Virus record (IMG/VR): IMGVR_UViG_2939127364_000004
DNA: 38,955 bases
Source: a virus
Lineage: Duplodnaviria; Heunggongvirae; Uroviricota; Caudoviricetes
Direction: 5' to 3' (one strand)
The notes under the pieces are model-generated. The model saw only the letters and a program-made list of their open reading frames with translations, ran no database searches and was not told where the DNA came from. The position numbers were made by a program, and so were the translations under genes. Positions 4,462 through 31,245 of the stretch are shown here, in pieces (the stretch's first letter is position 1; each line of letters starts with the position of its first letter).

Positions 4462-4518
4462 ATTAGTACCTGGTTTAAGTCTTCCGACAGTTACGCTGCT
4501 CACCATCCGGATCGCAGC

Positions 4519-4546: not shown

Positions 4547-4565
4547 GTTGTAATAAATGATTTAT

Positions 4566-9447: not shown

Positions 9448-9450
9448 CAG

Positions 9451-9702
9451 TTAGTCCTGATTTTTATCCACCCTGAGTAGTTCGCGCAGAGCAAAGGCAT
9501 CCCCTTTTCTGGCAAGCTTAAACAATGCCGCTCGTAACTCGGCTTCACCTTTCGCTCTGCCCTTACGGATGGCCGCATAAAAATCTGTCATTGCTTCCCG
9601 ATTTTCTTTCAGTCGGTTCAGATCAACATCCAGAACGTCAGCGATTTGTTGTGCAGTCATCCGGCACGCTGCCAGAGACTCGACTTTCGAATACGGAATC
9701 AT
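9451..9702 (-). CDS. Small HTH-like protein (83 aa) directly upstream of terminase small subunit
   Basis: ATG 9702 with GGGGGTGA SD; MTAQQIADVLDVDLNRL helix-turn-helix-like segment; first 21 codons overlap the 3' end of the upstream gene. Confidence 0.4.
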   Translation of the reverse strand: MIPYSKVESLAACRMTAQQIADVLDVDLNRLKENREAMTDFYAAIRKGRAKGEAELRAALFKLARKGDAFALRELLRVDKNQD

Positions 9703-12949: not shown

Positions 12950-13086
12950 ATCTAAATATTCTTTCAATTATAACCACCTTGCTGCAATATTATGATTATA
13001 CTGTATAAAATTTAACTCCTCTTAGATCTTACTTCACTGTTCCTTATGAAACAATCATCAAAATGAATCATATTGTAGTTAAGATT

Positions 13087-15217: not shown

Positions 15218-15540
15218 TTTTTTGCCCGTCCATATTCAACGGCTTCTTTGAGGAGTTCATTTTCCATCGTTTTCTTGCCGAGCAGGCGCTGGAGTTCTTT
15301 AATCTGCTTCATGGCGGCAGCAAGTTCAGAGGCAGGAACAACCTGTTCTCCGGCGGCGACAGCAGTAAGACTTCCTTCCTGATATTGCTTACGCCAGAGA
15401 AATAACTGGCTGGCTGCTACACCATGTTGCCGGGCAACGAGGGAGACCGTCATCCCCGGTTCAAAGCTCTGCTGAACAATTGCGATCTTTTCCTGTGTGG
15501 TACGCCGTCTGCGTTTCTCCGGCCCTAAGACATCAATCAT
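15175..15540 (-). CDS. insC: IS2 OrfA (InsC) HTH protein
   Basis: 121 aa from ATG 15540, [41 protein letters not shown]... Confidence 0.9.
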
Positions 15541-15847: not shown

Positions 15848-16243
15848 CTAACCTCGCATGTCAAAGCCAGATTTCTGAAAATCTCTGTAGACTTCCGGAT
15901 TGTTGAAGGCCGGAAATTTGGCTTTATGAGCTGCGGACTTTATCGCTTCGCAATAGGCTTTATCACCGTTACTGGTAGATATTTTTAACGCCGTGCCATC
16001 CTGAGAGAATTCCATATGCAACCTGCATTTTTTCCCTTTCCAGTTATGCGGCTCATCAAGTTTGGCATTAATTGCAGCTCTGATTCCCCGCGCTTGCGCC
16101 CCCCATTCATCCTGATCATCCCAGCGTCCTGAACTGCAACTACCTGTAGCAGTAGTTTTGTGGCAATCTGAAGGGTGTAAAGGTGTGCATCCCGCAACAA
16201 AACCGACCCAAAAAGTCAACATAACGATTTTCTTTAATCCCAC
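15848..16243 (-). CDS. Lipoprotein with TolA C-terminal domain III-like domain (paralog 1)
   Basis: GTG start 16243 with GAGGAG SD; signal peptide MGLKKIVMLTFWVGFVAGC (lipobox VAGC); C-terminal KGKKCRLHMEFSQDGTALKISTSNGDKAYCEAI...PEVYRDF aligns with TolA-III and with paralog 2. Confidence 0.7.
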   Translation of the reverse strand: MGLKKIVMLTFWVGFVAGCTPLHPSDCHKTTATGSCSSGRWDDQDEWGAQARGIRAAINAKLDEPHNWKGKKCRLHMEFSQDGTALKISTSNGDKAYCEAIKSAAHKAKFPAFNNPEVYRDFQKSGFDMRG

Positions 16244-16323: not shown

Positions 16324-17518
<1,195 letters not shown>

Positions 17519-17592: not shown

Positions 17593-18021
17593 TCAGGGTT
17601 TAAAATCCAGCACCCCATTTTGAAATACTTTATATACTTCCGGCGAAGGGGGGGCAGGTATATCAGCATTCTTTATCGCATTCATCGCTTCACGACATAA
17701 ATCGAGGTCTCCACTTTCTCTTTTAACCTCCAGTAGAAGGCCATTCGGGGCCATATGCATTCTCAGTGTACACTCTTTTCCTGAATACTTACTCGCATCC
17801 CCGAACTGTTTTTCGATGGCGCTCTTGATTTGATGGGCATACAGACGGATATCCTCACTAACATCAGAAGTACGTTCAGATGAACTCACATACTGTGTCT
17901 CTATTGCTTTATCGGAGTAATATGATGTACGGTCATGATAATTTGTCGATACAGCATCAGTGCACCCGATAATAATCCCACTAATAATCAACGTAAGAAT
18001 TGATGCGCTACGAAAACCCAT
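17593..18021 (-). CDS. Lipoprotein with TolA C-terminal domain III-like domain (paralog 2)
   Basis: ATG 18021 with GAGGA SD; signal peptide MGFRSASILTLIISGIIIGC; C-terminal YAHQIKSAIEKQFGDASKYSGKECTLRMHMAPNGLLLEVKRESGDLDLCREAMNAIKNADIPAPPSPEVYKVFQNGVLDFKP is roughly half identical to recalled E. coli TolA residues ~335-421. Confidence 0.75.
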   Translation of the reverse strand: MGFRSASILTLIISGIIIGCTDAVSTNYHDRTSYYSDKAIETQYVSSSERTSDVSEDIRLYAHQIKSAIEKQFGDASKYSGKECTLRMHMAPNGLLLEVKRESGDLDLCREAMNAIKNADIPAPPSPEVYKVFQNGVLDFKP

Positions 18022-19065: not shown

Positions 19066-19608
19066 TCAAGCCATTTTCTCAGCAAATGATTCACGCATGG
19101 GAATATATAGGGCATACTCAGCAACAGCTAACCAATTAGCAATCCGTTTTTCGCATGTGCTAAAACACCACTCTGGGTGTGCATCATTTAGCAATTCAGC
19201 CATTTTGCGCTTAGTCATCCCCCGCCCTTCATAGCGTTGCCGGAGAATGCAAATCAATCCTGGATGCTCTGCCAGCACCTCACTTATGACTCGATCAATA
19301 CATAACGCCTCTGCATCAGTACAATGCGCCAGCCAGCTCTTTTGCTTGCCGTTGATCATCTCTCGCAAAAACGCTTCCAGCTCAGCTTTCTCTATTCCCG
19401 CTTTTTTCATTCTGCGCAGGGCTTCATTAATGGCTGTTTTCGTCAGTTTTTTGGATGCCAACAACTGATTGAACATATTCCCTGACCTGTCACCGCCAAT
19501 ATACGACCAGCGCCCCCACATACGTAGTTTTCCCTGAATCCAGACACTTTCCAGCGTGGTGAGGCGAAGGTGTTCTCCGCTTTTTCCTGTATTCGTTGGG
19601 TAAATCAT
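19066..19608 (-). CDS. Putative late-gene antiterminator Q-like protein (180 aa)
   Basis: Position between Nin-type genes and late terminator/lysis cassette; ATGA overlap with upstream gene; assignment by synteny, weak sequence recollection. Confidence 0.5.
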   Translation of the reverse strand: MIYPTNTGKSGEHLRLTTLESVWIQGKLRMWGRWSYIGGDRSGNMFNQLLASKKLTKTAINEALRRMKKAGIEKAELEAFLREMINGKQKSWLAHCTDAEALCIDRVISEVLAEHPGLICILRQRYEGRGMTKRKMAELLNDAHPEWCFSTCEKRIANWLAVAEYALYIPMRESFAEKMA

Positions 19609-19895
19609 AAATGACCTTTCTTTCTCCAGATTTCTTGTGTGCGAAAAACCCCTTCAGCATGCATCAGGCGCAATTCTTCTTTGGTGTAATCGCTGGTTTT
19701 TACCCGCCCGTCGATTAGATCGTGGCATGAGCTACAGGCTATCGCCGCCTGCATATCGTGTGGTTTTGTCGCTGTTCCGCACGTCCCCGCCAGCCTGTAA
19801 TGCGCCAGCACAGAGGTTTCGGGATTGTGATTGCAGTAGCCAGGGATTCTGATCTGGCACATCTGGCCTTTAGCCGCTTTACGTAAATTCACCAT
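19605..19895 (-). CDS. YbcO-like Nin-region protein (DUF1364, Cys-rich putative nuclease, 96 aa)
   Basis: Five conserved Cys (CQIRIPGYC ... CSSCHD); position upstream of Q as in DLP12 ybcO. Confidence 0.55.
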   Translation of the reverse strand: MVNLRKAAKGQMCQIRIPGYCNHNPETSVLAHYRLAGTCGTATKPHDMQAAIACSSCHDLIDGRVKTSDYTKEELRLMHAEGVFRTQEIWRKKGHL

Positions 19896-20494
19896 TACGC
19901 AAACTCCAGTAGTTGTGCGGCCACATTTTCAACTTCCTCCTGAGAGGAGAATTTACGGAACAGAATCCAGTTCCACAGCACATTCAGTACAGATTTATAA
20001 ACCTGCTGAAACTCGACTTCGTCCATATTCGCAAAAGCGATGGATTTTGCCCGACGCCCACGGCTACCGTCCGGATAAATATGCTCGGTGTAAAATCCGG
20101 CCTGAATGGTTACCCACTCGCGGAAAGCCTCAAACGACTTTAGCAACGCCGTATCCCGGGTTCTACGAGTCGCAACGGTGTTAAGGTATTGCTCTGCGGC
20201 ATCACTCAGGGCTGGCGTGTGTTCCCGACCAACTGATTCGCACAGGTAATCAACGAAACCAGACAGCAGTTCTCGTTCGCGAGGCGTGATCGCCCCACCG
20301 ACCGGAGTCCAGTAATCGAATCCCAGTTGCAGGAGTTTGAAAAAACGCTTGTGGAATGCGTAGTTACGCACACGCTTAAAGTCTGCGTGTATCCACTCAC
20401 CTATTTTGATTTGATGCAGAAAATCGCAACTCTCCGGCGTCGCCGGGAGAAGTAAACCAGAAGAAGTTTGTTTGACCAGTTGTATATGCGCCAT
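19895..20494 (-). CDS. DUF1367 / YbcN-like Nin-region protein (199 aa)
   Basis: ORF with ATG 20494, translationally coupled (TAATG) to downstream gene; family assignment from recollection. Confidence 0.45.
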   Translation of the reverse strand: MAHIQLVKQTSSGLLLPATPESCDFLHQIKIGEWIHADFKRVRNYAFHKRFFKLLQLGFDYWTPVGGAITPRERELLSGFVDYLCESVGREHTPALSDAAEQYLNTVATRRTRDTALLKSFEAFREWVTIQAGFYTEHIYPDGSRGRRAKSIAFANMDEVEFQQVYKSVLNVLWNWILFRKFSSQEEVENVAAQLLEFA

Positions 20495-20767
20495 TTCTCA
20501 ATCTCTCGATGGCGCAGTGCAGCAGATGCCAGTTGTTCAGGCTGACGTATAAAGTATAAATAAACTGGTTCCAGTGTAAAGCCCCCACCTTAATGGAATA
20601 AAAACCAAACAACAGATTGCTGGGATACAAACAACGCTTATTATTAAAAGCGGTTAAACAAATTAAATTTTAATGTTATGCAAATTTGTCAGATCACCAT
20701 AATATCTCATTTGAAAACCGCTGAAATAACAATCCTATCAGGATTAATCATATTAAGGTGAGTAAAT

Positions 20768-20854
20768 ATGGAAAACAACAAATCTGCACATTACGCTCCT
20801 TTTTTATCTGTAATACTTTTTGTTTTTTGCTGTGTATGGGCATTATTTTTATAA
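20768..20854 (+). CDS. Candidate 28-aa hydrophobic small protein (MENNKSAHYAPFLSVILFVFCCVWALFL), not in ORF track
   Basis: ATG 20768 preceded by AAGGTGAG SD at 7-nt spacing; possible sigma70 promoter TTATGC-17-ATAATA about 50 bp upstream; single predicted TM helix; convergent with hokD. Confidence 0.3.
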   Translation: MENNKSAHYAPFLSVILFVFCCVWALFL

Positions 20855-20962
20855 AAATATTCACAGATAAAATAAACTCGCCGAATCAGGTTAAGTGTGG
20901 GTGCGTTGAGGATGCCTGACACATCAGAGGCGGCGAGGGATTTCTCCCTCGCCTAGTCACTC

Positions 20963-21118
20963 TTACTCCTCAGGTTCGTAAGCTGTGAAGACAGCGACCT
21001 CCGTCTGACCGGTTCGGATTCGCACCTCGCAGAGGTCTTTCCTCGTTACCAGTGCCGTCACTATGACGGTTAAACAGATGACAATCAGTGCGACTAACAT
21101 CGCCTTTTGCTGCTTCAT
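20963..21118 (-). CDS. hokD: Hok/Gef-family type I toxin HokD (51 aa)
   Basis: MKQQKAMLVALIVICLTVIVTALVTRKDLCEVRIRTGQTEVAVFTAYEPEE; stable GGCGAGGGA-tttc-TCCCTCGCC hairpin 10 nt past the stop at 20932-20953. Confidence 0.85.
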   Translation of the reverse strand: MKQQKAMLVALIVICLTVIVTALVTRKDLCEVRIRTGQTEVAVFTAYEPEE

Positions 21119-21838
21119 AGCCTGCTTCTCCTTGCCTTCCGGCGCGTAAGAGGCTAACCTACATGTGCAAAGCATGAAATTGGCCTCAGATTAATGTTAA
21201 GCGTCTTGCCGGACGCGTAATGTTATCTGGGGCTTTTCTCTATCTGCCTTTGGTGTTCATGCCTGAGGCAGATAGCCTCAAGCACCCGCAGCAATTCTAC
21301 TTAACTCCCGTCACCTCGCCAATATAAAATCAATCAGAAAGGCGATCCATAAGAACAACAGCAAGACAATAAATTGCCATTACAGCCGCAATAGCTAGCG
21401 CACATTTGAGAACCAGCACGACAACCTCCTGTATTGGACGTACACCAGTTCTGATAAATATGAGGCTGTCTCATCATTGATTCAATATAACTATTGGGTA
21501 TAGTTTCTGTGATTTTGTTCTGTAGAAATGGAACACAACAACCAGTCACCACCAGCACTTCTTTAAATACGCCAAGTCCGACGCAAGCTAACCTTCTAGT
21601 CCGCTTTGAGCGAGGAGCGGACCAAACCCGGCCAACTGACTCTTAAAGGGGCCGCAGGAATTTTTCGTCTGAACTTTCGAAGCTCCTCTCCCTGAAGACA
21701 GAAAACTTCTGTGTGCTGTGGGAATATTGAATCTTTGCCTTAGATATAAATAATTTTATCCCGCCTGAAGTTTACATTATTTTATTTATCTGTTTTTCTA
21801 AATCAGACTGCACTCCTTACTTAAATCAGGAGCCAGTC

Positions 21839-23038
21839 ATGCCATTTGTTATTTATGTGTTTACTATCAGTGCCTTTGCGCTCGGACTCGCGGAATTTGT
21901 CCCCATTGGGCTGACAGACGTTATGGCTCAGGGGTTGTGTGTGGGTGTGGAGCAGACCGGGGCAGCGGTTACAACCTATGCACTGGGGGCAACGTTCGCG
22001 GCACCCGTACTGTCTGCGCTGACAGCAAGCTGGAGCCGGAAAAATGTAATGCTTACAACTGCCGTTGTGTTTACTGCCGGTAGTCTGGCGGCCGCGTTTG
22101 CAGCCACATTACCTCAGCTCCTGTTAGCGCGGTTCATTGCTGGTCTGGGACACGGCCTGTTTCTGGCTGCGGCATCCAGTACCGCAGCTCGTCTTGCTGG
22201 ACCGGGTAAAGCAGGCAGAGCGGTGGCTGTGGTATTTGGTGGCTTTACTCTGGCGATGGCAATCGGCGTACCGCTGAGTACATGGTTGGGGGGGGTGGTC
22301 TCATGGCGTCCAGTTCTCGGCGCTATTGCCGCTTTTGGCGCGTTCGGATTCCTTGGACTGTTGTTCGGTATGAAAGATCCCGTACGCAGCGTGCCCGGTG
22401 AACATAGTGACTCAGCAATGCAGAATATCGGCATGCTGTTTAACCGTAAGTTGCTGGCCGGCGCGCTGGTTACGGTGCTGGCGTATGCAGGCTCGTTTAC
22501 GGATTACACCTTTATCGCACCTATTCTGACGCAGGTGACAGGGGTTACCGGAGCAACGGTGAGTCTGTTTATGCTGGTTTACGGTATTACAGCTGCGGTA
22601 GGTAATATTCTTGGTGGGAAACTTACCGACAGCATGGGGGTTAATCGTGCCAATATACTCATCATTAGCGGCATTGTTGTTGTCGTGCTTGGTATGTGGC
22701 TGCTGTCATCCTCACCGGTGAGCATGGGCATTCTGGTTGCGCTGCTGGGTATGGTGACATTTGCCGCAGTGCCGGCACTGCAGGCCCGTCTGATTGGTGT
22801 CGCTGAGCAACATGCTCCTCATGCGCATGGTGTTGCTGCCGGCCTGAATATTGCGGGCTTCAACTCAGGTATAGCGCTGGGATCAGTACTGGGCAGCATT
22901 ACTATAAGCCACGCCGGTATCGTGTATACCGGTATCAGCGGTGCGATTGTTTCTCTGCTCGGCCTGCTGTTGCTGCTTGCACAAATCCGTCGCAGCCACA
23001 GTCGTAAATTTCAACAGGTTAAAATCGTAGGCCAGTAA
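21839..23038 (+). CDS. MFS transporter (12-TM, 399 aa)
   Basis: AGGAG SD; hydrophobic 12-helix pattern, Gly/Ala-rich, central cytoplasmic loop. Confidence 0.8.
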   Translation: MPFVIYVFTISAFALGLAEFVPIGLTDVMAQGLCVGVEQTGAAVTTYALGATFAAPVLSALTASWSRKNVMLTTAVVFTAGSLAAAFAATLPQLLLARFIAGLGHGLFLAAASSTAARLAGPGKAGRAVAVVFGGFTLAMAIGVPLSTWLGGVVSWRPVLGAIAAFGAFGFLGLLFGMKDPVRSVPGEHSDSAMQNIGMLFNRKLLAGALVTVLAYAGSFTDYTFIAPILTQVTGVTGATVSLFMLVYGITAAVGNILGGKLTDSMGVNRANILIISGIVVVVLGMWLLSSSPVSMGILVALLGMVTFAAVPALQARLIGVAEQHAPHAHGVAAGLNIAGFNSGIALGSVLGSITISHAGIVYTGISGAIVSLLGLLLLLAQIRRSHSRKFQQVKIVGQ

Positions 23039-23049
23039 AGGGAGGTTAT

Positions 23050-23742
23050 ATGCTTACCCGTGAAAATATGCTTAATGGCACATTTGTCAGGGTGCATGAA
23101 GCGCTGCTCCCGGCGAATATGCTCTGGGACGCTGAAAAAATACGCGCATCAATGAACTCTACTCTGGAGGAGCGCCCGACGGGTGCTCCTGTCTGGATAT
23201 TTGCCTACGGGTCATTGATGTGGAATCCCGTGCTGGCGATTGAAGAAATGCAACGGGCCCGTCTGAAAGGATGGCAGCGCAGTTTCTGCATTCGTTTGAT
23301 ATCCGGACGAGCGACTCCTGATGTCCCCGGCAGGATGTTATCGCTCGACGAAGGTGGAATTACCGAAGGTATTGCGTTCAGACTGCCGGAATCGACTCTT
23401 ATTAATGAGCTGGAAATTGTCTGGACGCGCGAGATGATAACCGGTCTTTACCGTCCGGTCTGGGCAGACGTTTCGCTAGGAAACGGTGAGGAAATTCAGG
23501 CGCTGGCTTTCGTATCAGACAGACTGCATCCGCATTATGAACAGGACAATCTTACAGCGACCGTAGCGTTGAGCATCGCATCTGCCCGTGGAGACATTGG
23601 CACGAATGCAGATTATGTATGGAAACTGCAGGCCACTCTGGGTGCGTTGGGAATACGGGATGATTACGTGAGTGAACTGGCCCTTGCTCTGCATGAGGCT
23701 CCCTGTAACGATAAACTTCATCAGCGAGGCGCTTCACTATGA
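23050..23742 (+). CDS. ChaC-family gamma-glutamylcyclotransferase-like protein
   Basis: GGAGG SD; WIFAYGSLMWNP (YGSL motif) and overall similarity to ChaC; 230 aa. Confidence 0.7.
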   Translation: MLTRENMLNGTFVRVHEALLPANMLWDAEKIRASMNSTLEERPTGAPVWIFAYGSLMWNPVLAIEEMQRARLKGWQRSFCIRLISGRATPDVPGRMLSLDEGGITEGIAFRLPESTLINELEIVWTREMITGLYRPVWADVSLGNGEEIQALAFVSDRLHPHYEQDNLTATVALSIASARGDIGTNADYVWKLQATLGALGIRDDYVSELALALHEAPCNDKLHQRGASL

Positions 23743-24620
23743 GCCATCTGAGCCATCTGCGAACGTTTCTTGAGGCCTATCGCTCTGGCTCCTTTTCAAA
23801 GGCGGCAGAACTACTGGGCATCACTCAGCCCGCGGCGTCACAGCATATCCAGTCTCTTGAGACTCTGGTTGGTAAGCGTCTGTTTATCAGGCAGGCCAGA
23901 GGCGTGACGGCAACCGAAGCTGCGGATGAGCTTGCCCGCTCAGTTTCACCCTTCATTGATGGTCTGGAAGAAAAGCTGTCCTCTTTCCGGTCAGGCTCTG
24001 TACGCGGGGGAACAATTAATCTGGCAGGACCGCCAGATTTTATTCATTCCCGGCTTGGGACAGTAATGGCTCCACTAATGAAGGAGGGGTATCGCCTACG
24101 CTTTCATACCGGCAATAAGCAACGTATTTATTCCCTTTTGCATGACGGGAGCGCCGATCTCGCTGTTACCGCATCTATGCCTGATGACCGTCTGTACGGC
24201 TATGCACATCTACTGACTGAACGCATGCTCCTTGTTCATGCTCCCGCCATGTCAGAGATCATCGGATCAGAACCTGGTGCTGAAACGCTTGCCTCATTAC
24301 CGCTGATTGCTTATGACGAAGAGTTGCCACTGATTAGAGCGCTCTGGGCCTCCATGTTTCAGAGAGCCCCTGAGATGCAGGCTACATTCACCATTCCGGA
24401 TTTACGTATTATCCGCGACTTGGTCTGTGACGGCCACGGGTGGACAGTGCTGCCGGATTATCACTGTGACAATGACCTGAAAAGTGGTCGCCTGATTTCA
24501 GTGACACCTGCAGACCTCGCTCCGACTAATCATCTTTATCTGGTCTGGAACAAAAGGACGGCTAATAACAGCCGAACCGCCTATGTTCGGGATTACATTC
24601 TTAAAACGTTTCCGCGTTGA
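23739..24620 (+). CDS. LysR-type transcriptional regulator
   Basis: N-terminal HTH LRTFLEAYRSGSFSKAAELLGITQPAASQHIQSLE; start overlaps ChaC stop (ATGA). Confidence 0.85.
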   Translation: MSHLSHLRTFLEAYRSGSFSKAAELLGITQPAASQHIQSLETLVGKRLFIRQARGVTATEAADELARSVSPFIDGLEEKLSSFRSGSVRGGTINLAGPPDFIHSRLGTVMAPLMKEGYRLRFHTGNKQRIYSLLHDGSADLAVTASMPDDRLYGYAHLLTERMLLVHAPAMSEIIGSEPGAETLASLPLIAYDEELPLIRALWASMFQRAPEMQATFTIPDLRIIRDLVCDGHGWTVLPDYHCDNDLKSGRLISVTPADLAPTNHLYLVWNKRTANNSRTAYVRDYILKTFPR

Positions 24621-24750
24621 TGTTTGAAACGGATGATTGGCGATGCGTATCATAAGTTACGTATGTCCGCTTCTGGCACAAAGCAGACGCCCACTCTCAC
24701 GCGAATGCTTTGCCCTTGACTTGCCAACAACCGTATCGCTTGCTCCGCAA

Positions 24751-26043
24751 CTATGGTTTTTTATTAGAATCTTCGCCACTAAATAAATTATAATAAATTG
24801 ATTTTATTAGATATCTGTCAGAATCTATATGGTCAGCACGAGTAGCATGCTCTAATGTTTCAAATGCTAGGGTTTGTGCGGCTTCAGCAAAAATTCCAGG
24901 CCAACCCTTACTCAGCATCGACAGTCCTTTAAGTACCCTTATCTGAATTTCCCTCATACTGGCACCATCGCGCGCAACAGGTGAGAAAAAGTCTTCAAGT
25001 AGATCGTTATTCTGAAGTGGTGCAACATGTACAGAAGGATATTTCACTTCTATTTCATCAGATTTATTCTGCGCGTAAGCGGAAAGTATACGTACACCTC
25101 TGCCAATGACATCAATGGCGGTTCCTGGATCGTTCACTGCGGGGGAAAGGGCTCGGCAGGCTATTTCGGCCATGACGCTAAGACAAAATCGGGGGTCCTG
25201 AGCAAATGAACGTACATCCGAGACAATAATCGTCTCAAGTAAATCGGTGCTGATTGATGACTCCTGGCCCTGACTCAGGTACAAAACTGGCGTGGACGGA
25301 TGTATGAAACTGCCCGGCTGCGCCACGAGGTATACATGACGGGGATCATTGGTCAGCAGCTTGCTGAGTTTCACCATATCAACATATTCAACATAGCCAA
25401 TCTTTTTCGGATAAACTGCAACCGTTCCTTTCGGCTGTTCATTGTTCTCAAGCCATGGATATCCGCCGAGACAGGGATTTCTTGCTCTCGCAATAAATGT
25501 TTCGATGGCCGCCTGTTCTACTTTTGCCGTTGTCTCACCAACCCTCCCCAGAGAGGTCAAATGCTGTATCCAGCGAAGCAATGTGATGAGGATTAAGGCA
25601 ATGACAACCAGTGTTACAATGAATAAAATGACTCTCCCCCTTTCTCCATAAGCTCCCATATTGAGGGCAATAATCCCTACCAGACTGAAGAGAAAAGAAC
25701 CGATGAAGGTGGCCAGTACATTTTGTGTGGTGACGTCTTCAACAACTAAACGAGTAGCTCTGGGAGTCACATTAGTAGTGGCTGAACCGTAGGCTGTGAC
25801 CATGATGCTCAGCGAAAATGTGGTCACTGCCAGCATACTCGATGCCAGTATGTTCAGAATGTTATCGACTGCTTCCGCACCAACCTTCACGGAAACCGAC
25901 TCAGGTATCATTGATTTAAAAAGAATTGATAAAAGGGCCGTTATTATTGCGACAATTGCGAATAACGTTGCCCTGAACCATAGTTTTTTAAATGTCTGCT
26001 TCAGCATCCATTTCCAGCGTGAAATCATTCTGCATTCCCTCAT
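24751..26043 (-). CDS. DUF2254-family membrane protein (N-terminal TM domain plus soluble C-terminal domain)
   Basis: 430-aa ORF with 4-5 N-terminal TM helices; family from recollection; alternative start at 26028 has better SD. Confidence 0.5.
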   Translation of the reverse strand: MRECRMISRWKWMLKQTFKKLWFRATLFAIVAIITALLSILFKSMIPESVSVKVGAEAVDNILNILASSMLAVTTFSLSIMVTAYGSATTNVTPRATRLVVEDVTTQNVLATFIGSFLFSLVGIIALNMGAYGERGRVILFIVTLVVIALILITLLRWIQHLTSLGRVGETTAKVEQAAIETFIARARNPCLGGYPWLENNEQPKGTVAVYPKKIGYVEYVDMVKLSKLLTNDPRHVYLVAQPGSFIHPSTPVLYLSQGQESSISTDLLETIIVSDVRSFAQDPRFCLSVMAEIACRALSPAVNDPGTAIDVIGRGVRILSAYAQNKSDEIEVKYPSVHVAPLQNNDLLEDFFSPVARDGASMREIQIRVLKGLSMLSKGWPGIFAEAAQTLAFETLEHATRADHIDSDRYLIKSIYYNLFSGEDSNKKP

Positions 26044-26063
26044 ATTGCAGCCGGGATAAATAA

Positions 26064-26084
26064 ATGCCGCCTCTGTGGCGGCAT
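26064..26084 (-). terminator. Intrinsic terminator downstream of BCCT transporter gene
   Basis: Minus strand ATGCCGCC-acaga-GGCGGCAT followed by TTATTTAT. Confidence 0.5.
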
Positions 26085-26091
26085 GTTGCTG

Positions 26092-28095
26092 TTAACGAAC
26101 CAGATGCAGGAAGTGCAGGTGTTTTTCGTACTGGTCCAGTATGTCATTAATCAGCTGTTCCTGATTCCAGCCCATTACATCATAATTTTGGCCGCCCTCT
26201 TTGAGATAGACTTCAGCGCGATAATATCGATGTTGTTCACTCTGCTGCTCATCATTATCCAGCGCAGCGAGCGCGAAGGTCGGTGAGTTATACCCGCGAA
26301 GCCTCACTTCATATATATAATTCAGCTCGTTGCCCAAATCGACTTCAAGGCGAATACGATCCTCGGCGGCGTCACTGATGTGGCTTATCGTTCCCTGCTT
26401 GTTAAGTTCCTCCTGAACCAGCGTCATGGCGGGTTGGATAATGTCGTCCATAAAACGTTTCACAAGAGAGCGCTTCGGCAAATACGCGATATTGCGTAAC
26501 CTTCTCTGCCAGGGAATTGGGTTACGTGCAGCCGTAGGAGCAATAGTCGCCATGCTAAGGCTTTCACGCTTGGTCAAATCCCGACGCAGGGCTTTTAACA
26601 GTCCGTATATGGATATTAATAAGATAACTGAGAAGGGCAATGCACTCGCTATCGTTACGGTTTGCAACGCACTCAGCCCCCCTGCGATCAGCAGGGCAAT
26701 AGCAACAACGCCCATGAGCGATGCCCAGAAAATTCGCTGCCAGACGGGCGTGTTTGCCACCCCACCTGATGCCAGAGTATCCACAACCATTGCCCCCGAA
26801 TCAGCAGACGTTACAAAGAAGACGATGACCATCGCCATTGCAATGAATGACAGCACGGAAGAGAACGGGAAATGCTCCAGGAAATTAAACAGGGCAAGCG
26901 CAACATCCTGCTGAACGGTATTGGCGAGGTCAGTGGCGCCCTGGTTCATGATGAGATAGATGGCGCTGTTTCCAAACACCGTCATCCACATGAGCGTAAA
27001 GCCGGCGGGAACAAACAACACGCCAGTCACGAACTCACGAATTGTCCTGCCGCGGGAAACGCGTGCAATGAACATACCTACAAACGGCGACCATGAAAGC
27101 CACCATCCCCAGTATAATAATGTCCAGCCCCCCAGCCAGTTGCTCGACTTGGGTTCATACGCGTAAAGGTTGAACGTTTTACTCACCAGTTCCGACAGAT
27201 AACCACCCGTATTTTCCACAAATGACTTCAGCAGAAGCACAGTGGGACCCAGGCACAAGACCAGCGCCAGGAGCAACACCGCCAGGCCCAGATTAAGCTC
27301 AGACAGGATGCGTATTCCCTTGTCCAGGCCGGACACCACCGAAATCGTCGCTAACCCCGTGATGACCACGATCAAAATGACCTGTACCGTTTCATTGATG
27401 GGCACGCCGAAAAGATGGTTCAAACCGGCATTCACCTGCAATACACCGTAACCCAGCGATGTTGCAACGCCAAAGACAGTGCCTATCACGGCGAAGATAT
27501 CAACCGCGTGGCCTATAGGCCCGTAAATGCGATCGCCGATAATGGGATAGAGCGCAGAACGCAGCGTTAAAGGCAGACCGTGACGGTAACTGAAAAAGGC
27601 CAGAATCAGCGCCACGATGGCATAAATTGCCCATGCGTGCAGACCCCAGTGGAAGAACGTCAGGCGCATGGCTTCCTTCGCTGCCGCAACGGTCTCTGGA
27701 GTGCCGACAGGTGGCGAAAGATAATGCATCACAGGTTCGGCAACGCCAAAGAACATCAGGCCGATCCCCATCCCTGCCGAAAAAAGCATCGCGAACCAGG
27801 AGTGGTAGCTGAAATCAGGCTGCGCATGGTCTGGGCCCAGCTTTATATCACCGTAACGTGAGAGTCCAAGGAACGTGACGCTCAGTAAAATCAGGGCCAC
27901 AGCAAGTATGTAGAACCAGCTGGCATTCGTGAAGATTTGTTGCTGAAGTAGTTTAAAATTTTTGTCGGCGACATCCGGGAATACGGCGGCAAAGGCGACA
28001 AGAAGGAAAATTAGCAAAGCAGATGTAAAGAATACCGCTTTGTTAATCTGGCTTGTAGACTTCTTTGGGGTTGTATCATTTTCACTCATAATCAT
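26092..28095 (-). CDS. BCCT-family transporter, BetT-like (667 aa with long cytoplasmic C-terminal tail)
   Basis: Conserved BCCT blocks (WTLLYWGWWLSWSPFVGMFIARVSRGRTIREF); length and C-terminal extension as in choline transporter BetT but sequence clearly distinct from E. coli BetT. Confidence 0.85.
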   Translation of the reverse strand: MIMSENDTTPKKSTSQINKAVFFTSALLIFLLVAFAAVFPDVADKNFKLLQQQIFTNASWFYILAVALILLSVTFLGLSRYGDIKLGPDHAQPDFSYHSWFAMLFSAGMGIGLMFFGVAEPVMHYLSPPVGTPETVAAAKEAMRLTFFHWGLHAWAIYAIVALILAFFSYRHGLPLTLRSALYPIIGDRIYGPIGHAVDIFAVIGTVFGVATSLGYGVLQVNAGLNHLFGVPINETVQVILIVVITGLATISVVSGLDKGIRILSELNLGLAVLLLALVLCLGPTVLLLKSFVENTGGYLSELVSKTFNLYAYEPKSSNWLGGWTLLYWGWWLSWSPFVGMFIARVSRGRTIREFVTGVLFVPAGFTLMWMTVFGNSAIYLIMNQGATDLANTVQQDVALALFNFLEHFPFSSVLSFIAMAMVIVFFVTSADSGAMVVDTLASGGVANTPVWQRIFWASLMGVVAIALLIAGGLSALQTVTIASALPFSVILLISIYGLLKALRRDLTKRESLSMATIAPTAARNPIPWQRRLRNIAYLPKRSLVKRFMDDIIQPAMTLVQEELNKQGTISHISDAAEDRIRLEVDLGNELNYIYEVRLRGYNSPTFALAALDNDEQQSEQHRYYRAEVYLKEGGQNYDVMGWNQEQLINDILDQYEKHLHFLHLVR

Positions 28096-28429
28096 TTATT
28101 CCATTAATTAAATCCGCACTGGATAGAAGGTACTACCTCTCACAGAGTAGCAAAGTTCAACTGGCTATGCGGGGTTAATCGGAATGCATGGTGGAATGAG
28201 TGCCGATACAAATCATCCTATATTCTAAGGAGTTTTAAGTTACTCAGCCTGCCAATTACTGGGGCATTTAATTTGTATGATCTGTATCAAAGCTGGGATA
28301 TAAGTTAAGTGAAGTATATTAGGCACGAATTACCAGCGTCTGCTCTTGGCACAAAGCGGACAACCACGCTAGCTCTACCCTGTGCCACAAAATGTCAATT
28401 TGCATCTGAACTAATGCACTTTAATCTCG

Positions 28430-28852
28430 TCACTTCAATAAATACCGAACATCCCCCTGATAAAACGACAATATGCGCTGCATAACTTCGCTCTTCCGGC
28501 ACTCGCGACAGATTATGTTTAGGCGACTGTCGTAGCGACGTATTTCTCCGTCAGGTAATGACCAGATAAGGTCCGGATCAACCACAACCGGTTTCTTCAG
28601 CTTTGCCCTCGATAATTTTTTGCGGGCATTTTGCCAGTCTTTACGAGCCTGTTCAGACGGGAATAACCCGTAGCCAGAATTGTATACATCGCCACTGGCA
28701 ACCAGCTCTCTGGCCAGAACGCTCATCAGATATCTTGTTGCCCCAGTTTTAGCTTCCAGTTGTCGTAACGTCTCGCGCCCACTCTGGCGTACGAGTTCAA
28801 GAACCTGCCCTTTAATTTTTTCCCGCTCTTCTTGTGTAAAAACTTTTGCCAC
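28430..28852 (-). CDS. Hypothetical protein (140 aa) downstream of replication initiator; possibly replication-associated
   Basis: GTG start 28852 with AGGAGG SD; basic, possible winged-helix N-terminus; occupies the position where a helicase loader is normally found. Confidence 0.4.
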   Translation of the reverse strand: MAKVFTQEEREKIKGQVLELVRQSGRETLRQLEAKTGATRYLMSVLARELVASGDVYNSGYGLFPSEQARKDWQNARKKLSRAKLKKPVVVDPDLIWSLPDGEIRRYDSRLNIICRECRKSEVMQRILSFYQGDVRYLLK

Positions 28853-28892
28853 AAGCCCTCCTGAAAATTACCTCATGACCAGAAATTAACAC

Positions 28893-29963
28893 TTACCCCC
28901 TGAAGCCCGGCGGAATTTCGTTATCCGGTTCAGAAATATGATTCACACAACGCTGGTTGTTCGTGCCGCTTACCGGGAGCAACCAGGGGTTCTCAAAATT
29001 CCGGTCCGGTCCAAAAAACGTCGTCGCTCGCTGAACAAATTCCGTTCCCGTTTTCCCGGTAGCCGCCAAGTATCTTGCGTAACGCCTCACGCCATCCAGC
29101 ATGGCCTCTGGTGGCACCCCCTCGCGTAATCTGGCCTTCCAGGCACTGAAAGCGGATTTCTTCGGGTTTGCCCCAGCACGCAACGGGTACTCCCGCCAGA
29201 CCTGTTCGAACACATCCGGATAATCCACTCGTCCCACAGACTGCCCGGTGTTTTCCGGGACTACCCGATCGGCTTCCCGCTGAATGGCGGAATCGGCTTC
29301 AGGCTGCTGCAGTTGGTGTGATTGCTCCGCCCTTGCGGTCATCACCTGCTGCACAGCGCCCGAATCGGCTTTCAGCGCATACGCTGAATCGGCTTCCGGT
29401 GTCGTGCCTGCTGGCTGACCAAGATTGACGGTCTGAACATCCCCTGCCTGGTTCGTGGCGTTTTTTACGCCATGGACCATAGTGTTTTGATCTTCTTGAT
29501 CTGTATCTTTATCTGTATCTTTATCTGTCGTGACTCGTCGTGACATGTGCGTGACATTTCGTGACGCGCCGTGACAATCGCCATTTTGTTCCCGCTTTCT
29601 TTCCCTCTCTCGCTGCGCCCTCTTGCGCTCTGCAGGAGATTTTGCGGTTTGCGAAATATTGCCGTTGTCCTCTTTAAGCACCTGGCGTTTTTCCCATCCA
29701 GTGATTAAATCACCATCAAGTACCCGCCCCTGCATCGTCTGCAAAATTGAATCAATTACCTCTTCTGTCACGTCGAGCGCACTTGCCAAATCTTCTGTCG
29801 TGACATCAATGTGACCTCGCGTGACATTTCGTGACGCGCTCACCAGGAGGTGGATATACACTGCCATCACTGTTGCAATTGGCTGTCCTGACACCCTGGC
29901 AATTGTTCGCCACTTAGGGTCATTTGGCATGTCATGCCATAATCTGAGCCAGGCGTTAGCCAT
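28893..29963 (-). CDS. Lambda O-like replication initiator with internal origin iterons
   Basis: ATG 29963 (AGAGGTGA SD); two GTGAC iteron clusters inside the coding sequence; synteny after cro/cII-like genes. Confidence 0.6.
   Translation of the reverse strand: MANAWLRLWHDMPNDPKWRTIARVSGQPIATVMAVYIHLLVSASRNVTRGHIDVTTEDLASALDVTEEVIDSILQTMQGRVLDGDLITGWEKRQVLKEDNGNISQTAKSPAERKRAQRERERKREQNGDCHGASRNVTHMSRRVTTDKDTDKDTDQEDQNTMVHGVKNATNQAGDVQTVNLGQPAGTTPEADSAYALKADSGAVQQVMTARAEQSHQLQQPEADSAIQREADRVVPENTGQSVGRVDYPDVFEQVWREYPLRAGANPKKSAFSAWKARLREGVPPEAMLDGVRRYARYLAATGKTGTEFVQRATTFFGPDRNFENPWLLPVSGTNNQRCVNHISEPDNEIPPGFRG
29500..29575. repeat. Origin-like iteron cluster 1: 12-bp direct repeat TCTGTATCTTTA x2.5 followed by five GTGAC repeats at 10-11 bp spacing
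   Basis: GTGAC at 29530, 29540, 29551, 29561, 29571. Confidence 0.6.
29800..29839. repeat. Origin-like iteron cluster 2: four GTGAC repeats at 10-11 bp spacing; contains a 20-bp exact copy of part of cluster 1
   Basis: GTGAC at 29800, 29811, 29821, 29831; CGTGACATTTCGTGACGCGC present at 29550-29569 and 29820-29839. Confidence 0.6.
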
Positions 29964-30034
29964 ACTCACCTCTTTTGATACCGAATCTTTTTACTCACAA
30001 ATTGCCGGAAGTGATCCGGTATGAATATTGCGAG

Positions 30035-30460
30035 TCAATGCACAGCCACAATATTTCCTGCAGGGCCACCACGATTCATCTGGTTGAAACCAGCGATCGC
30101 CACTGCGACAAAATCATCAGCGTCTCTCACCAGTCGTTCCCGCGTCTCCACTAGTTCCCGAAAATAGGCTGAGCTATGGCTGCGCATTCGGGCCACCAGC
30201 AGAGGTGGCATTGCTTTTTCGATAGCTGGTAACAACGCCTGAATTTTTTCAACTGCATCAGGGGTGTCTTTCTCTACCCAGCGGAAAATTTTCTGGGTAT
30301 TGCGAGCCAGGGCTTCCGGATGGCTGTCGTCATACAGTTCTGGGAACGTCATACCCAGTTCAAAATAAGCCCTGGTTATTTCAGCTGCCGGAACTTTTTC
30401 ACCGTCCGGATGCGCCCAGGCATTCATCGCCATGCGGATGTGTTCATGCTTGATTTTCAT
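30035..30460 (-). CDS. ydaT: YdaT-like protein (cII position, 141 aa)
   Basis: MKIKHEHI... N-terminus and position after Cro-like gene as in Rac ydaS-ydaT; 17-nt overlap with upstream gene. Confidence 0.5.
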   Translation of the reverse strand: MKIKHEHIRMAMNAWAHPDGEKVPAAEITRAYFELGMTFPELYDDSHPEALARNTQKIFRWVEKDTPDAVEKIQALLPAIEKAMPPLLVARMRSHSSAYFRELVETRERLVRDADDFVAVAIAGFNQMNRGGPAGNIVAVH

Positions 30461-30725
30461 GAATCAAGCTCCTAGAAAGTGGTTGTGTTAACATTTTGGT
30501 ATCTTCCAGCTCGGGCCAAATATTCATCCAATCAAAAGGCCTTAGTTGCTGACGTGTAACTTCACCATTACTGGCTCGCTCAATAAGGACACATAACGAT
30601 GCCCCTAACACTTGACCTTTACTCAATGCCTTTCTTAGATAACCGATGCTGGTACCACACTCGCATGCAAACATACGCTGTTCATCTGACGAAAGAGAAT
30701 TGAGAAATATTCTTAATTCTTCCAT
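30444..30725 (-). CDS. ydaS: Cro-like HTH regulator (YdaS family)
   Basis: AAGGAG SD; 93 aa; divergent from repressor across operator-containing intergenic region. Confidence 0.5.
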   Translation of the reverse strand: MEELRIFLNSLSSDEQRMFACECGTSIGYLRKALSKGQVLGASLCVLIERASNGEVTRQQLRPFDWMNIWPELEDTKMLTQPLSRSLIHENQA

Positions 30726-30754
30726 AGCTACTCCTTAGTAAACACAGCAAAGAA

Positions 30755-30830
30755 TACCCATAGGTAAACAAAAGTCAATACCCACAGGTTGTTTACCTTG
30801 CAGTAATCGCATCTATTATTTACCTATGGA
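30755..30830. promoter_or_regulatory. OR-like operator cluster: three copies of 12-bp near-palindrome TACCCATAGGTA in the divergent repressor/cro intergenic region
   Basis: TACCCATAGGTA 30755-30766, TACCCACAGGTT 30779-30790, TTACCTATGGAC ~30819-30830; TATTAT -10 hexamer directly before repressor ATG. Confidence 0.5.
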
Positions 30831-31245
30831 CAAATATGAATTTAGACGACAGCAACTCATCAAAATTCGTGATGAGAAATGCGATGGTAAAGCGGTTAAC
30901 GTGGCCAGAAAGATCGGGCGCGAGCCTTCTTATGTATCAAGAATGTTGTACCCAGAGGGGAAAAAGGGAAAAAAACGGATCGCTGATGATATGGTGGAGA
31001 TTATCGAAGAGTCCTTTGGGTTACCCCGGGGATGGATGGATGGTATCGTTTCATCATCAACGAACACAGCCTCCAGTTATGAAACAAGGGTTCTAACGCC
31101 ACGACAACGTATTTTTTTAGATCTCTTAGACGAACTGCCAGAAAGTGAAGCGGATAACTTATTAAAAACTCTTGAAGAGAAAAAACAGTATTACAATATG
31201 ATCTACGAAGAAATCCGTAAAAAGAAAGCACAAAACGCATCATAG
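30826..31245 (+). CDS. racR: cI-like prophage repressor, probably translated from a leaderless mRNA
   Basis: 139-aa ORF with HTH-like GKAVNVARKIGREPSYVSRML; no SD, ATG immediately follows a -10-like TATTAT; divergent from cro-like gene. Confidence 0.5.
   Translation: MDKYEFRRQQLIKIRDEKCDGKAVNVARKIGREPSYVSRMLYPEGKKGKKRIADDMVEIIEESFGLPRGWMDGIVSSSTNTASSYETRVLTPRQRIFLDLLDELPESEADNLLKTLEEKKQYYNMIYEEIRKKKAQNAS

What the first reader, a model, noticed from the sequence alone, without database searches (positions are those of the whole stretch)
20495..28429. About 8 kb of non-phage cargo sits between the replication module and the Nin/Q module
All phage genes keep lambda order and a single orientation across the window, yet between the O-like initiator region and the Nin genes lies a block of chromosomal-type genes in mixed orientation: BetT-like BCCT transporter, DUF2254 membrane protein, MFS-ChaC-LysR operon and hokD. 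No P/DnaC-like helicase loader is present. Either the prophage acquired a large metabolic/osmoprotection cargo in its nin region, or the window spans two complementary prophage remnants around a chromosomal segment. Both alternatives are unusual.
Basis: inference. Interest (0 to 1): 0.6.

Follow-up and report, generated by a model that had tools for sequence, protein, structure and literature searches.

The report
Swappable cargo cassettes in Rac prophage
The block is genuine cargo inside one Rac-type prophage of E. coli: two transporter/regulator cassettes in a swap slot whose edges are marked by a 24-bp palindrome that also brackets cassettes in P2-like phages and on plasmids, so it is an ordinary kind of prophage cargo with an instructive boundary signal.

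Summary
Between the replication module (DUF977 gene, ends 28430) and the nin/Q genes (DUF1367, starts 20494) lie hok/sok, an MFS–ChaC–LysR unit and a DUF2254–BetT-like BCCT pair.

It is one prophage, not two remnants. The same order, flanked by intR/ttcA, recurs in about 5% of complete E. coli genomes.

hok/sok is ordinary lambdoid backbone. The true cargo is 6.7 kb (21623–28337) and consists of two cassettes, A (21623–24664) and B (24689–28337).

All three cassette edges carry a 24-bp dyad, GTCYGCT-N10-AGCRGAC. There are three copies in 39 kb, against 0.07 expected by chance.

In other prophages the same two sites bracket at least 19 other cassettes, including TIR, RelA/SpoT-like and HAD+NUDIX genes. 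They also bracket phage P2's Z/fun moron.

Cassettes A and B occur motif-to-motif on Klebsiella, E. coli and Shigella plasmids. One 984-bp cassette is 99.8–99.9% identical in a lambdoid slot, a P2-like slot and an IncF plasmid, with unrelated flanks.

The missing DnaC/P gene reflects the replication-module type, which deposited phage genomes share.

Verdict: a new member of a known kind (a phage moron hotspot), of moderate interest. The recombination mechanism at the sites is unresolved.

The parts
19066..20494 (-). nin/Q module bordering the slot: DUF1133 Q-like antiterminator (19066-19608), YbcO nuclease (19605-19895), DUF1367 (19895-20494).
   Evidence: Pfam. RefSeq annotation of the identical sequence.
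20874..21598 (-). hok/sok type I toxin-antitoxin (hok ORF 20963-21175; sok/hok leader 21113-21287) plus a conserved phage spacer. This is backbone, not cargo.
   Evidence: Rfam sok 116 bits. NCBIfam Hok. Homology to hok loci of thousands of prophages and of Stx phages ends at 21612-21622.
21599..21622 (.). T1 boundary site GTCCGCTTTGAGCGAGGAGCGGAC (7-bp inverted arms, GAGCGA centre). Left edge of the cargo.
   Evidence: Backbone homology ends at 21612-21622; plasmid copies of cassette A start at 21598/21599.
21623..24664 (+). Cassette A: MFS transporter (21839-23038), ChaC-like gamma-glutamylcyclotransferase (23050-23742), LysR regulator (23739-24620).
   Evidence: Found in 310 of 5426 E. coli genomes at >=99%. 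A 92.5% copy lies motif-to-motif on K. pneumoniae plasmid INF231 p2.
24665..24688 (.). T2 boundary site GTCCGCTTCTGGCACAAAGCAGAC (TGGCAC centre). Junction between cassettes A and B.
   Evidence: Copies of cassette B elsewhere begin at 24663-24669 and the plasmid copy of cassette A ends at 24689.
24689..28337 (-). Cassette B: DUF2254 membrane protein (24751-26043), terminator-like hairpin (26064-26084), BetT-like BCCT transporter (26092-28095) with its own upstream region (28096-28337).
   Evidence: 99.8% copies on 68 plasmids, 90-95% copies on about 1,325 plasmids, and a 94% copy in the leuX island of about 1,550 E. coli genomes.
28338..28361 (.). T2 boundary site GTCTGCTCTTGGCACAAAGCGGAC. Right edge of the cargo, 68 nt downstream of the DUF977 stop codon.
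   Evidence: Phage backbone homology resumes at 28337-28342; plasmid copies of B end at 28362.
28430..29969 (-). End of the replication module: DUF977 (28430-28852) and a 358-aa O-like replisome organiser (28893-29969). No DnaC/P-type loader.
   Evidence: The same module occurs in phage Evi.

Best explanation
SHOWN. The window is one Rac-family lambdoid prophage at ttcA, read from the tail genes to intR. Between its last replication-module gene (DUF977) and hok/sok lies a hypervariable accessory-gene slot. The borders of the slot, and of each cassette in it, are a 24-bp dyad GTCYGCT-N10-AGCRGAC. The T1 version (centre GAGCGA) sits on the hok side. A T2 version (centre TGGCAC) follows each cassette. 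Here the slot holds two cassettes: A (MFS-ChaC-LysR) and B (DUF2254 plus a BetT-like BCCT transporter). Other prophages hold other cassettes between the same sites. The same T1/T2 pair brackets the Z/fun moron of P2-like phages. Cassettes A and B, and a third cassette, occur motif-to-motif on plasmids.

INFERRED (mechanism). Cassettes are exchanged as units by recombination confined to the T sites. The outer half-site stays with the backbone and the inner half-site travels with the cassette. Unrelated backbones share nothing but the 24 bp, and T1 and T2 have the same arms but different centres. I therefore think a site-specific recombinase acting on two heterospecific sites (cassette replacement by T1xT1 plus T2xT2 exchange) is somewhat more likely (about 0.45) than short-homology recombination (about 0.35). 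The recombinase is unknown.

INFERRED (function). Cassette B gives the lysogen an extra choline/betaine-type osmoprotectant uptake system with its own upstream region. Cassette A is a LysR-controlled MFS efflux/uptake system plus a glutathione-type gamma-glutamyl-degrading enzyme. Neither is needed by the phage. Both are kept in Rac remnants that have lost their late genes, which suggests benefit to the host.
For: One prophage:
- Identical order with intR-ttcA on one side and late genes on to pinR/uspF on the other (ten further places).
- 276-296 genomes carry the block and 262 hold it contiguous through intR.

Slot and sites:
- The motif occurs 3 times in 38,955 bp, against 0.065 in shuffles, exactly at the three junctions.
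- blastn breakpoints against Evi, E. coli W, strain 4114 and plasmids all fall inside these 24 bp.
- At least 120 IMG/VR contigs carry T2.
- The layout hok-T1-cassette-T2-DUF977 recurs in 14 of the fetched loci.
- 23% of 3,661 internal HSP ends lie within 15 bp of a site, against 0.6% at random.
- Change-points map to the site.
- 41 motif-bounded intervals fall into 21 cassette types. They include TIR/PDC-S35, RelA_SpoT, HAD+NUDIX and a HEPN-like protein.

Cross-backbone transfer:
- A 984-bp cassette is 99.8-99.9% identical in a lambdoid slot, a P2-like G|FI slot and a Shigella IncF plasmid. Flank identity is at the random level (0.23-0.27) and the T sites are chimeric.
- Cassette A (L101) and cassette B (L224) sit before the same 694-bp Klebsiella plasmid flank.
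- P2 itself has T2 at 15335-15358 and a degenerate T1 at 17431-17455 around fun(Z).

Retention:
- The cargo is kept in Rac remnants lacking late genes (L093, L098; L100).

Function:
- Family scans.
Against: - No recombinase is linked to the sites. The only recombinases of the Rac prophage are IntR (in the window) and PinR (seen at the far end of the prophage in a related genome), and neither is known to act on sites like these.
- No T1xT2 hybrid centres (GAGCAC or TGGCGA) and no empty slot were seen, so excision or integration of single cassettes is not documented.
- The phage encodes RecET, which can use very short homologies (own knowledge). General recombination therefore remains viable.
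- The IMG/VR loci were retrieved with the T2 pattern itself and are partly redundant. The counts describe contexts, not frequencies.
- Transport substrates and expression are untested.
- The widespread Klebsiella plasmid and leuX-island copies of B are IS-flanked and keep only degenerate T2 remnants. IS-mediated capture therefore also moves this cassette.
Confidence: 0.85

Rival explanations
1. The window spans two complementary prophage remnants that happen to flank a native chromosomal segment carrying the transporter genes.
For: Mixed gene orientation and housekeeping-type functions. No helicase loader next to the O-like gene.
Against: - The same contiguous order from intR/ttcA to the late genes appears in every genome inspected.
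- 262 of 296 cargo-bearing genomes are contiguous through intR.
- DUF977 and hok are joined through other short cassettes in phage Evi and many prophages.
- Cassette A occurs in E. coli only in this context or on a plasmid.
- No species-representative genome has a close syntenic relative: the best ChaC-like hit is 62% identical, with no MFS or LysR hit at E<1e-20 in the 30 loci listed.
Confidence: 0.02
2. The cargo was dropped into the prophage by an IS-bounded composite transposon or another transposition event, and the palindromes are incidental.
For: IS elements flank copies of cassette B in the leuX island and on plasmids: IS3, IS1, IS5, IS26. Many Rac copies carry secondary IS insertions.
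Against: - In the window there is no IS, terminal inverted repeat or target duplication at 21.6, 24.7 or 28.3 kb.
- The edges coincide to the base with sites that bound at least 19 unrelated cassettes without IS.
- The 984-bp cassette has the same edges in three backbones.
Confidence: 0.04
3. The T sites are only short conserved linker or insulator sequences. Cassettes are swapped by homologous or short-homology recombination within them, for example by Rac RecET, lambda Red-type or RecA functions. No dedicated recombinase is involved.
For: - The prophage encodes RecE and RecT.
- No recombinase gene is consistently adjacent to the sites.
- No hybrid T1/T2 centres were found, as expected if only like sites pair.
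- An analogous model exists for promoter/stem-loop cassettes in T4-type phages (PMC2839356).
Against: - Homology is only 24 bp with polymorphic positions.
- To my knowledge (not checked here), P2-like phages and the plasmids involved lack Red/RecET-type functions, yet they share cassettes at 99.8-99.9% identity.
- Breakpoints are confined to the dyad even where the adjoining backbone is conserved.
- The dyad architecture with an exactly central GC, and weak hairpin energy, looks like a protein site.
Confidence: 0.35
4. The palindromes are transcription terminators or RNA-stabilising hairpins that insulate morons from phage transcription. Their position at breakpoints is a by-product.
For: They are extragenic and lie at gene ends, and classical morons are flanked by a terminator. 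T2 lies 68 nt after the DUF977 stop codon, where a tR2-like signal would be expected (own knowledge of lambda).
Against: - Folding is weak (z -0.0 to -1.7) and there is no T-run.
- The arm polymorphism gives mismatches rather than compensatory pairs: pair 4/21 shows C:G 67, T:G 19, C:A 15, T:A 0.
- The same orientation and centre type are kept regardless of the orientation of cassette genes.
- No Rfam family matches.
Confidence: 0.1

Closest known systems
[quoted passage not shown]
   Same: The same T2 and T1-like dyads bracket fun(Z) in phage P2. Of the T2-bearing viral contigs examined, 23 have a gpG-type tail-fibre assembly gene next to T2 and 7 have a tail-sheath gene on the other side. 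One cassette is shared at 99.9% identity between a P2-like slot and lambdoid slots.
   Different: The phage family differs (lambdoid Rac) and so does the position (end of the replication module, before hok/nin). The cargo here is two multi-gene transporter/regulator cassettes in tandem. I could not read the 2004 paper. Its title and later citations suggest it described flanking repeats and proposed site-specific recombination, but that rests on memory.
Lambdoid morons (Juhala et al. 2000 concept), e.g. trkG in Rac
   Same: Non-essential host-benefit genes inserted between conserved phage genes and absent from relatives. Rac already carries the K+ transporter trkG (window 11492-12967).
   Different: This slot has defined sequence borders shared with other replicon types. 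trkG has no T site.
[quoted passage not shown] 2022, PMC9122126)
   Same: A fixed locus with a high turnover of cassettes, many of them defence-like. Here these are TIR/PDC-S35 and RelA_SpoT-like.
   Different: Those hotspots are cos-adjacent and the authors propose cos-end-driven recombination. Here the borders are dyad sites, and the occupants in this window are transporters.
Integron gene cassettes
   Same: Works alike in outline: arrays of cassettes, each followed by an imperfect palindrome, with a distinct first site.
   Different: There is no IntI gene, no attC R''/R' core (GTTRRRY), the cassettes have their own regulators and mixed orientation, and the sites are 24 bp. Not a member.
Promoter-early stem-loop (PeSL) mobile regulatory cassettes of T4-type phages (PMC2839356)
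   Same: Short conserved intergenic elements at the borders of swapped genes, proposed to drive modular shuffling.
   Different: The sequence is unrelated and the phages are virulent. The PeSL model is homologous recombination, and no plasmid link is known.

Membership tests
Rac-family prophage (ttcA-integrated lambdoid) | IntR-type tyrosine integrase and xis next to ttcA, followed by recET, kilR, sieB and racR/ydaS/ydaT-type immunity genes | tested here: met
   Integrase, RecE and RecT by Pfam. 100% identical DNA is annotated intR-xisR-...-ttcA in RefSeq genomes.
Rac-family prophage (ttcA-integrated lambdoid) | Single element bounded by one attL/attR pair | tested here: inconclusive
   The window ends inside intR and starts in the tail genes, so the att sites are outside it. 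In related genomes the element runs from ttcA to pinR/ydfK/uspF.
Phage moron / accessory-gene hotspot | Genes absent from close relatives at the same position, between conserved phage genes | tested here: met
   The same flanks hold other cassettes in Evi, E. coli W, strain 4114 and many IMG/VR prophages.
Phage moron / accessory-gene hotspot | Own promoter and terminator, expressed from the prophage | tested here: inconclusive
   Consensus promoter-like sites are no more frequent than chance (13 vs 10.8). One good terminator-like hairpin lies at 26064-26084. There are no expression data.
T1/T2-bounded cassettes (P2 Z/fun-type locus) | Cassette bracketed by the GTCYGCT-N10-AGCRGAC dyads, GAGCGA centre on one side and TGGCAC centre on the other | tested here: met
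   Window sites at 21599-21622, 24665-24688 and 28338-28361. P2 sites.
T1/T2-bounded cassettes (P2 Z/fun-type locus) | Recombination at the sites by a site-specific recombinase | not testable with these tools
   Only static junctions are available. Chimeric half-sites are seen, but no enzyme is known.
Integron | intI integrase with attI next to the array | tested here: not met
   No IntI-type gene lies near the slot. The only integrase in the window is IntR, about 9 kb away.
Integron | attC sites with RYYYAAC / GTTRRRY cores | tested here: not met
   The site sequences lack these cores.
Composite transposon | IS copies or terminal inverted repeats with target duplication at both ends | tested here: not met
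   No IS ORF or such repeat lies at the junctions. The IS5 in the window is elsewhere (16356-17372).
BCCT transporters, BetT subfamily | Full-length BCCT domain; NCBIfam BetT-subfamily score above the curated cut-off | tested here: met
   PF02028 over 1-485/485, E 7e-199. NF007399 scores 752 bits vs a cut-off of 695.
BCCT transporters, BetT subfamily | Choline (or betaine) transport activity | not testable with these tools
   The sequence gives family membership only.
hok/sok type I toxin-antitoxin | Hok toxin ORF with an overlapping sok antisense / mok leader | tested here: met
   Rfam sok scores 116 bits vs 59. Hok NCBIfam hits fall below the curated cut-off (48 vs 73 bits). The precomputed Pfam family is HOK_GEF.
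Lambda O/P-type replication module | Helicase loader (P or DnaC/IstB-like ATPase) next to the initiator | tested here: not met
   No such domain lies in 28430-31245. Alternative Rac variants with the same cargo do have a 248-aa IstB_IS21/Bac_DnaA protein (L093/L098).
REP/BIME-type extragenic palindromes | Hundreds of chromosomal copies; 35-40-bp palindromes matching the REP consensus | tested here: inconclusive
   No T site lies in about 25 kb of flanking chromosome, and the sequence does not resemble the REP consensus as I recall it.

The most novel reading that the evidence does not exclude
T1 and T2 are two heterospecific crossover sites (same arms, different centres) of a still unidentified site-specific recombinase. 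This would be a natural 'recombinase-mediated cassette exchange' system that moves ready-made gene cassettes (defence, transport, metabolism) between lambdoid phages, P2-like phages and conjugative plasmids of Enterobacteriaceae. The idea may have been proposed for the P2 Z region in 2004, but to my knowledge it has never been generalised or given an enzyme.
Probability: 0.3. Interest if true: 0.7.

Novelty: new member of a known kind. Interest (0 to 1): 0.4.

Why it matters
For the finding as given, it settles an apparent anomaly. The transporter block is ordinary prophage cargo in a defined slot of a widespread Rac variant, not a chimeric locus.

Beyond that:
- The 24-bp border gives a simple sequence handle for harvesting accessory and candidate defence cassettes from lambdoid and P2-like prophages and from plasmids.
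- Near-identical, motif-bounded copies tie the prophage copy of the BetT-like/DUF2254 pair to 68 plasmids of E. coli, Shigella, Klebsiella and Enterobacter. More diverged (90-95%), IS-flanked copies sit on about 1,325 further plasmids, mostly Klebsiella.
- It makes the old question of how unrelated phages and plasmids exchange exact cassettes experimentally testable.

Tried and rejected
1. BL21 looked at first like an 'empty slot' (DUF977 next to hokD). Alignment shows a deletion from 21442 to 28556 that truncates DUF977. No true empty slot was found.
2. A 'T-site remnant' beside DUF2254 on plasmid pVA684-388 is really the outer end of a Tn3-family inverted repeat with IS4321 inserted in it.
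3. A search for a donor of cassette A among species-representative genomes found nothing close. The best ChaC-like hit is 62% identical (Serratia), with no MFS or LysR hit at E<1e-20 in the 30 loci listed. The nearest relatives are plasmid-borne in Klebsiella, at 92.5% and 65-75%.
4. GC and GC3 profiling is uninformative.
5. Rfam found only sok. The terminator reading of the dyads is weak.
6. Comparison from memory with integron attC, dif/cer Xer sites, hix/gix, sigma-54 promoters, LysR T-N11-A boxes, REP and ERIC gave no convincing match. The outer hexamer TGTCYG equals that of Tn3/gamma-delta res site I half-sites as I recall them. This is a lead, not a test.
7. Hybrid T1/T2 centres were sought and not found.
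8. Literature: no paper links Rac with BCCT and none prints 14-15-mers of the motif. Nilsson et al. 2004 and two related papers are not held in the library.
9. Two pattern calls failed on syntax. One script failed on a wrong regular expression. One fuzzy-regex scan returned nothing and was replaced by direct inspection.

Full report
**1. What is in the window**

- BetT-like BCCT at 26092-28095(-): Pfam E 7e-199; NCBIfam BetT subfamily 752 bits against a cut-off of 695.
- DUF2254 at 24751-26043(-).
- LysR at 23739-24620(+).
- ChaC-like gamma-glutamylcyclotransferase at 23050-23742(+).
- MFS at 21839-23038(+).
- Hok at 20963-21175(-).
- Rfam adds a full-length sok match at 21113-21287.

The block is bordered by DUF977 (28430-28852) and a 358-aa replisome organiser on one side. 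On the other side are DUF1367, YbcO and a DUF1133 Q-like protein. Elsewhere the window holds IntR, RecE, RecT, TrkG, a large terminase, a portal-like protein, a P22-type coat protein and an IS5-type transposase.

**2. One prophage, not two**

The 11.5 kb around the block is 100% identical to many E. coli chromosomes, and 276 of 5,426 complete genomes hold at least 80% of it.

In annotated genomes it lies in the Rac prophage at ttcA. The order is intR-xisR-rcbA-ralR-recT-recE-racC-ydaE-kilR-sieB-ydaF-immunity-ydaT-organiser-DUF977 | BCCT-DUF2254-LysR-GGCT-MFS | hokD-DUF1367-DUF1364-DUF1133-tolA-like-lysis-trkG-ynaK-terminase-head-tail. Ten further places returned by exact-protein look-up give the same picture.

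Cassette A occurs in 310 genomes, 296 of them with the full unit. Of these, 262 hold the 17.3 kb from the cargo through intR contiguously.

Some strains have lost the whole late region, so that uspF-ompN-ydbK abut the cargo. Others have lost the structural genes. The cargo is retained in both cases (L093/L098).

The 'two complementary remnants' reading is therefore rejected.

**3. The missing helicase loader**

No DnaC/IstB/DnaB-type domain lies between 28430 and 31245. This is a property of the replication-module allele.
- The deposited phage genome Evi has the same 356-aa protein (annotated 'Primosomal protein I') followed by a DUF977-like gene and no loader.
- Rac variants L093 and L098 carry the same cargo next to ydaU (262 aa) + a 248-aa IstB_IS21/Bac_DnaA protein + DUF1627 + DUF977.
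- The last 24 residues of the 358-aa protein weakly resemble the C-terminus of DnaT (E 7e-4). This is a hint, not a result.

**4. The true limits of the cargo**

- Homology of hok loci in other prophages and in phages runs up to window 21612-21622.
- Homology downstream of DUF977 resumes at 28337-28342.
- hok/sok sits next to DUF1367 in thousands of prophages and occurs in Stx phages, so it is backbone.
- The foreign DNA is 21623-28337 and falls into two units.
- Strain 4114 has unit B (from 24663) but other genes instead of A.
- A K. pneumoniae IncF plasmid has unit A alone at 92.5% identity, covering 21598-24689.
- Sixty-eight plasmids of E. coli, Shigella sonnei/flexneri, Klebsiella and Enterobacter have unit B at 99.8%, covering 24663-28362.
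- Plasmid pPEC1012 has A+B, covering 21599-28362, next to IS26.
- A 94% copy of B lies in the leuX island of about 1,550 E. coli genomes.
- 90-95% copies lie on about 1,325 plasmids, mostly Klebsiella, beside the sil genes.
- No record among 50,697 phage genomes carries A or B.

**5. The boundary motif**

The three junctions each contain a 24-bp dyad:
- 21599-21622, GTCCGCTTTGAGCGAGGAGCGGAC (T1)
- 24665-24688, GTCCGCTTCTGGCACAAAGCAGAC (T2)
- 28338-28361, GTCTGCTCTTGGCACAAAGCGGAC (T2)

The pattern GTCYGC-N8-16-GCRGAC occurs only at these three places in 38,955 bp. Shuffles give 0.065.

In the fetched loci the layout hok-T1-cassette(s)-T2-DUF977-organiser recurs.

Only the 24-bp core is conserved. 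The cassette-side flanks are not.

Among these loci, 23% of 3,661 internal megablast HSP ends fall within 15 bp of a site centre, against 0.6% of random positions. Change-point mapping puts switches of similarity at or inside the site.

Forty-one motif-bounded intervals form 21 cassette types. They encode:
- HAD + NUDIX hydrolases
- a HEPN_RES-like protein + a GNAT
- a TIR protein matching PADLOC PDC-S35 (E 1e-69)
- a RelA_SpoT-like protein
- many proteins without any family

**6. Not restricted to lambdoid phages**

Next to the last T2, the neighbouring gene is DUF977 in 36 loci and a Caudo_TAP tail-fibre assembly protein in 23. On the other side, 7 loci have a tail sheath gene. This is the G|FI 'moron position 2' of P2-like phages (PMC3573123).

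Phage P2 itself has GTCCACTCTGTGCCAAAAGCGGAC (T2 on the other strand) at 15335-15358, about 60 nt after gene G. It has a degenerate T1 at 17431-17455, before the FI promoter. The two sites bracket fun(Z).

A 984-bp cassette encoding a 269-aa protein is 99.8-99.9% identical in a lambdoid slot (L143), a P2-like slot (L164) and a Shigella IncF plasmid (L008). Identity of the 300-nt flanks is at the random level (0.23-0.27). In each T site the outer part varies with the backbone and the inner part stays with the cassette.

The same segregation is seen at T1 of pPEC1012 against the Shigella plasmid. In addition, cassettes A and B precede the same 694-bp flank on two Klebsiella plasmids.

Pairs of T2 followed about 19 bp later by T1, and related hairpins in GC-rich viral contigs, also occur.

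**7. What the sites are**

- As single strands they fold weakly (z -0.0 to -1.7), and no T-run follows.
- The polymorphic arm position gives C:G 67, T:G 19, C:A 15 and T:A 0.
- Both centre types have GC exactly in the middle.
- This looks more like a dimeric protein site or a recombinase crossover site than a terminator.
- No hybrid centres and no empty slot were found. This fits exchange of like with like (T1xT1 and T2xT2), that is, cassette replacement rather than excision.
- The prophage's own RecET keeps short-homology recombination in play.
- I rate a site-specific mechanism at about 0.45, short-homology recombination at about 0.35, and other explanations for the rest.

**8. Literature**

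- No open-access paper links Rac with these genes.
- Ramisetty & Sudhakari (PMC6379469) list chaC and a LysR regulator among non-phage genes of a 'Qin' prophage of strain CRE1540.
- No paper prints the motif.
[quoted passage not shown] Rousset et al. and others cite it. I could not read it. What I say about its content rests on its title and on memory.
- A functional analogue is the PeSL cassettes of T4-type phages (PMC2839356).

**9. Verdict**

The block is a tandem pair of exchangeable cassettes in a recognised kind of phage hotspot, present and annotated in hundreds of genomes.

The instructive part is that the same 24-bp sites delimit cassettes in Rac-like phages, P2-like phages and plasmids. 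The mechanism and the physiological value of the two cassettes remain inferred.

Noticed in passing
window 11492-12967 (-): A second transporter cargo, TrkG (TrkH family), lies between the lysis genes and ynaK/terminase. Its GC is very low (0.378; GC3 0.32) against 0.47 for the window. No T site flanks it.
   Followed up: partly
window 16356-17372 (+): An IS5-type transposase (338 aa; DDE_Tnp_1 + DUF772) is inserted between two TolA-like ORFs (15848-16243 and 17593-18021). Related genomes lack it or carry other IS insertions elsewhere in the prophage.
   Followed up: partly
window 20855-21315; L003, L097, L100, L225: The hok/sok gene itself is an alternative allele. In several Rac copies this 460-bp stretch is replaced by a DUF1971/TehB-family gene, while both flanks stay 97-99% identical.
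   Followed up: partly
window about 21117-21132; L092, L096: Some Rac copies carry a 3.3-kb insertion with relE-relB-ydfV-flxA (as in Qin) inside the hok/sok region, with about 16 bp of the window present on both sides. On plasmids (L008, L102) and in a plasmid-like resistance region integrated in a chromosome (L007), a truncated ydfV'-relB-relE' abuts the right-hand T2 in inverted orientation.
   Followed up: no
window 28893-29969 (-), last 24 residues: The C-terminus of the 358-aa replisome organiser weakly matches the C-terminus of primosomal protein DnaT (NCBIfam E 7e-4). The Evi homologue is annotated 'Primosomal protein I'. This may explain replication without a phage-encoded loader.
   Followed up: no
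window 26064-26084: A perfect 8-bp GC-rich hairpin followed by a T-rich tract on the - strand lies between the BCCT and DUF2254 genes. The two genes may be separated by a terminator or attenuator.
   Followed up: no
L005 (E. coli W) 7950-11153: The same slot in E. coli W holds DUF262 + an AAA ATPase + a hypothetical protein, a likely defence-type trio. It is bounded by diverged T sites (GTTGGCTTTGAGCG... and TACCGCTTTTGGCACAAAACAGAC).
   Followed up: partly
L175, L194, L199, L205, L219; L153, L214, L215, L222: A T2 followed 15-21 bp later by a T1 (tandem units). In GC-rich (54-61%) viral contigs, T2-like sites are paired with hairpins having the same arms but CGGGGGT or TGACCC loops. The arm sequence is therefore used well beyond E. 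coli phages.
   Followed up: partly
L224 (K. pneumoniae pVA684-388) 3395-6000: IS5075 and IS4321 sit in tandem in a Tn3-family terminal repeat that abuts the DUF2254 end of cassette B, replacing its T2.
   Followed up: partly
L001 21840-23038 vs window 21839-23038: The MFS gene is intact in the window and in MS6193/CH4804 (399 aa), but RefSeq flags it as frameshifted in strain NT1F31, and it is split in L094. Decay of cassette A has begun in some lineages.
   Followed up: no
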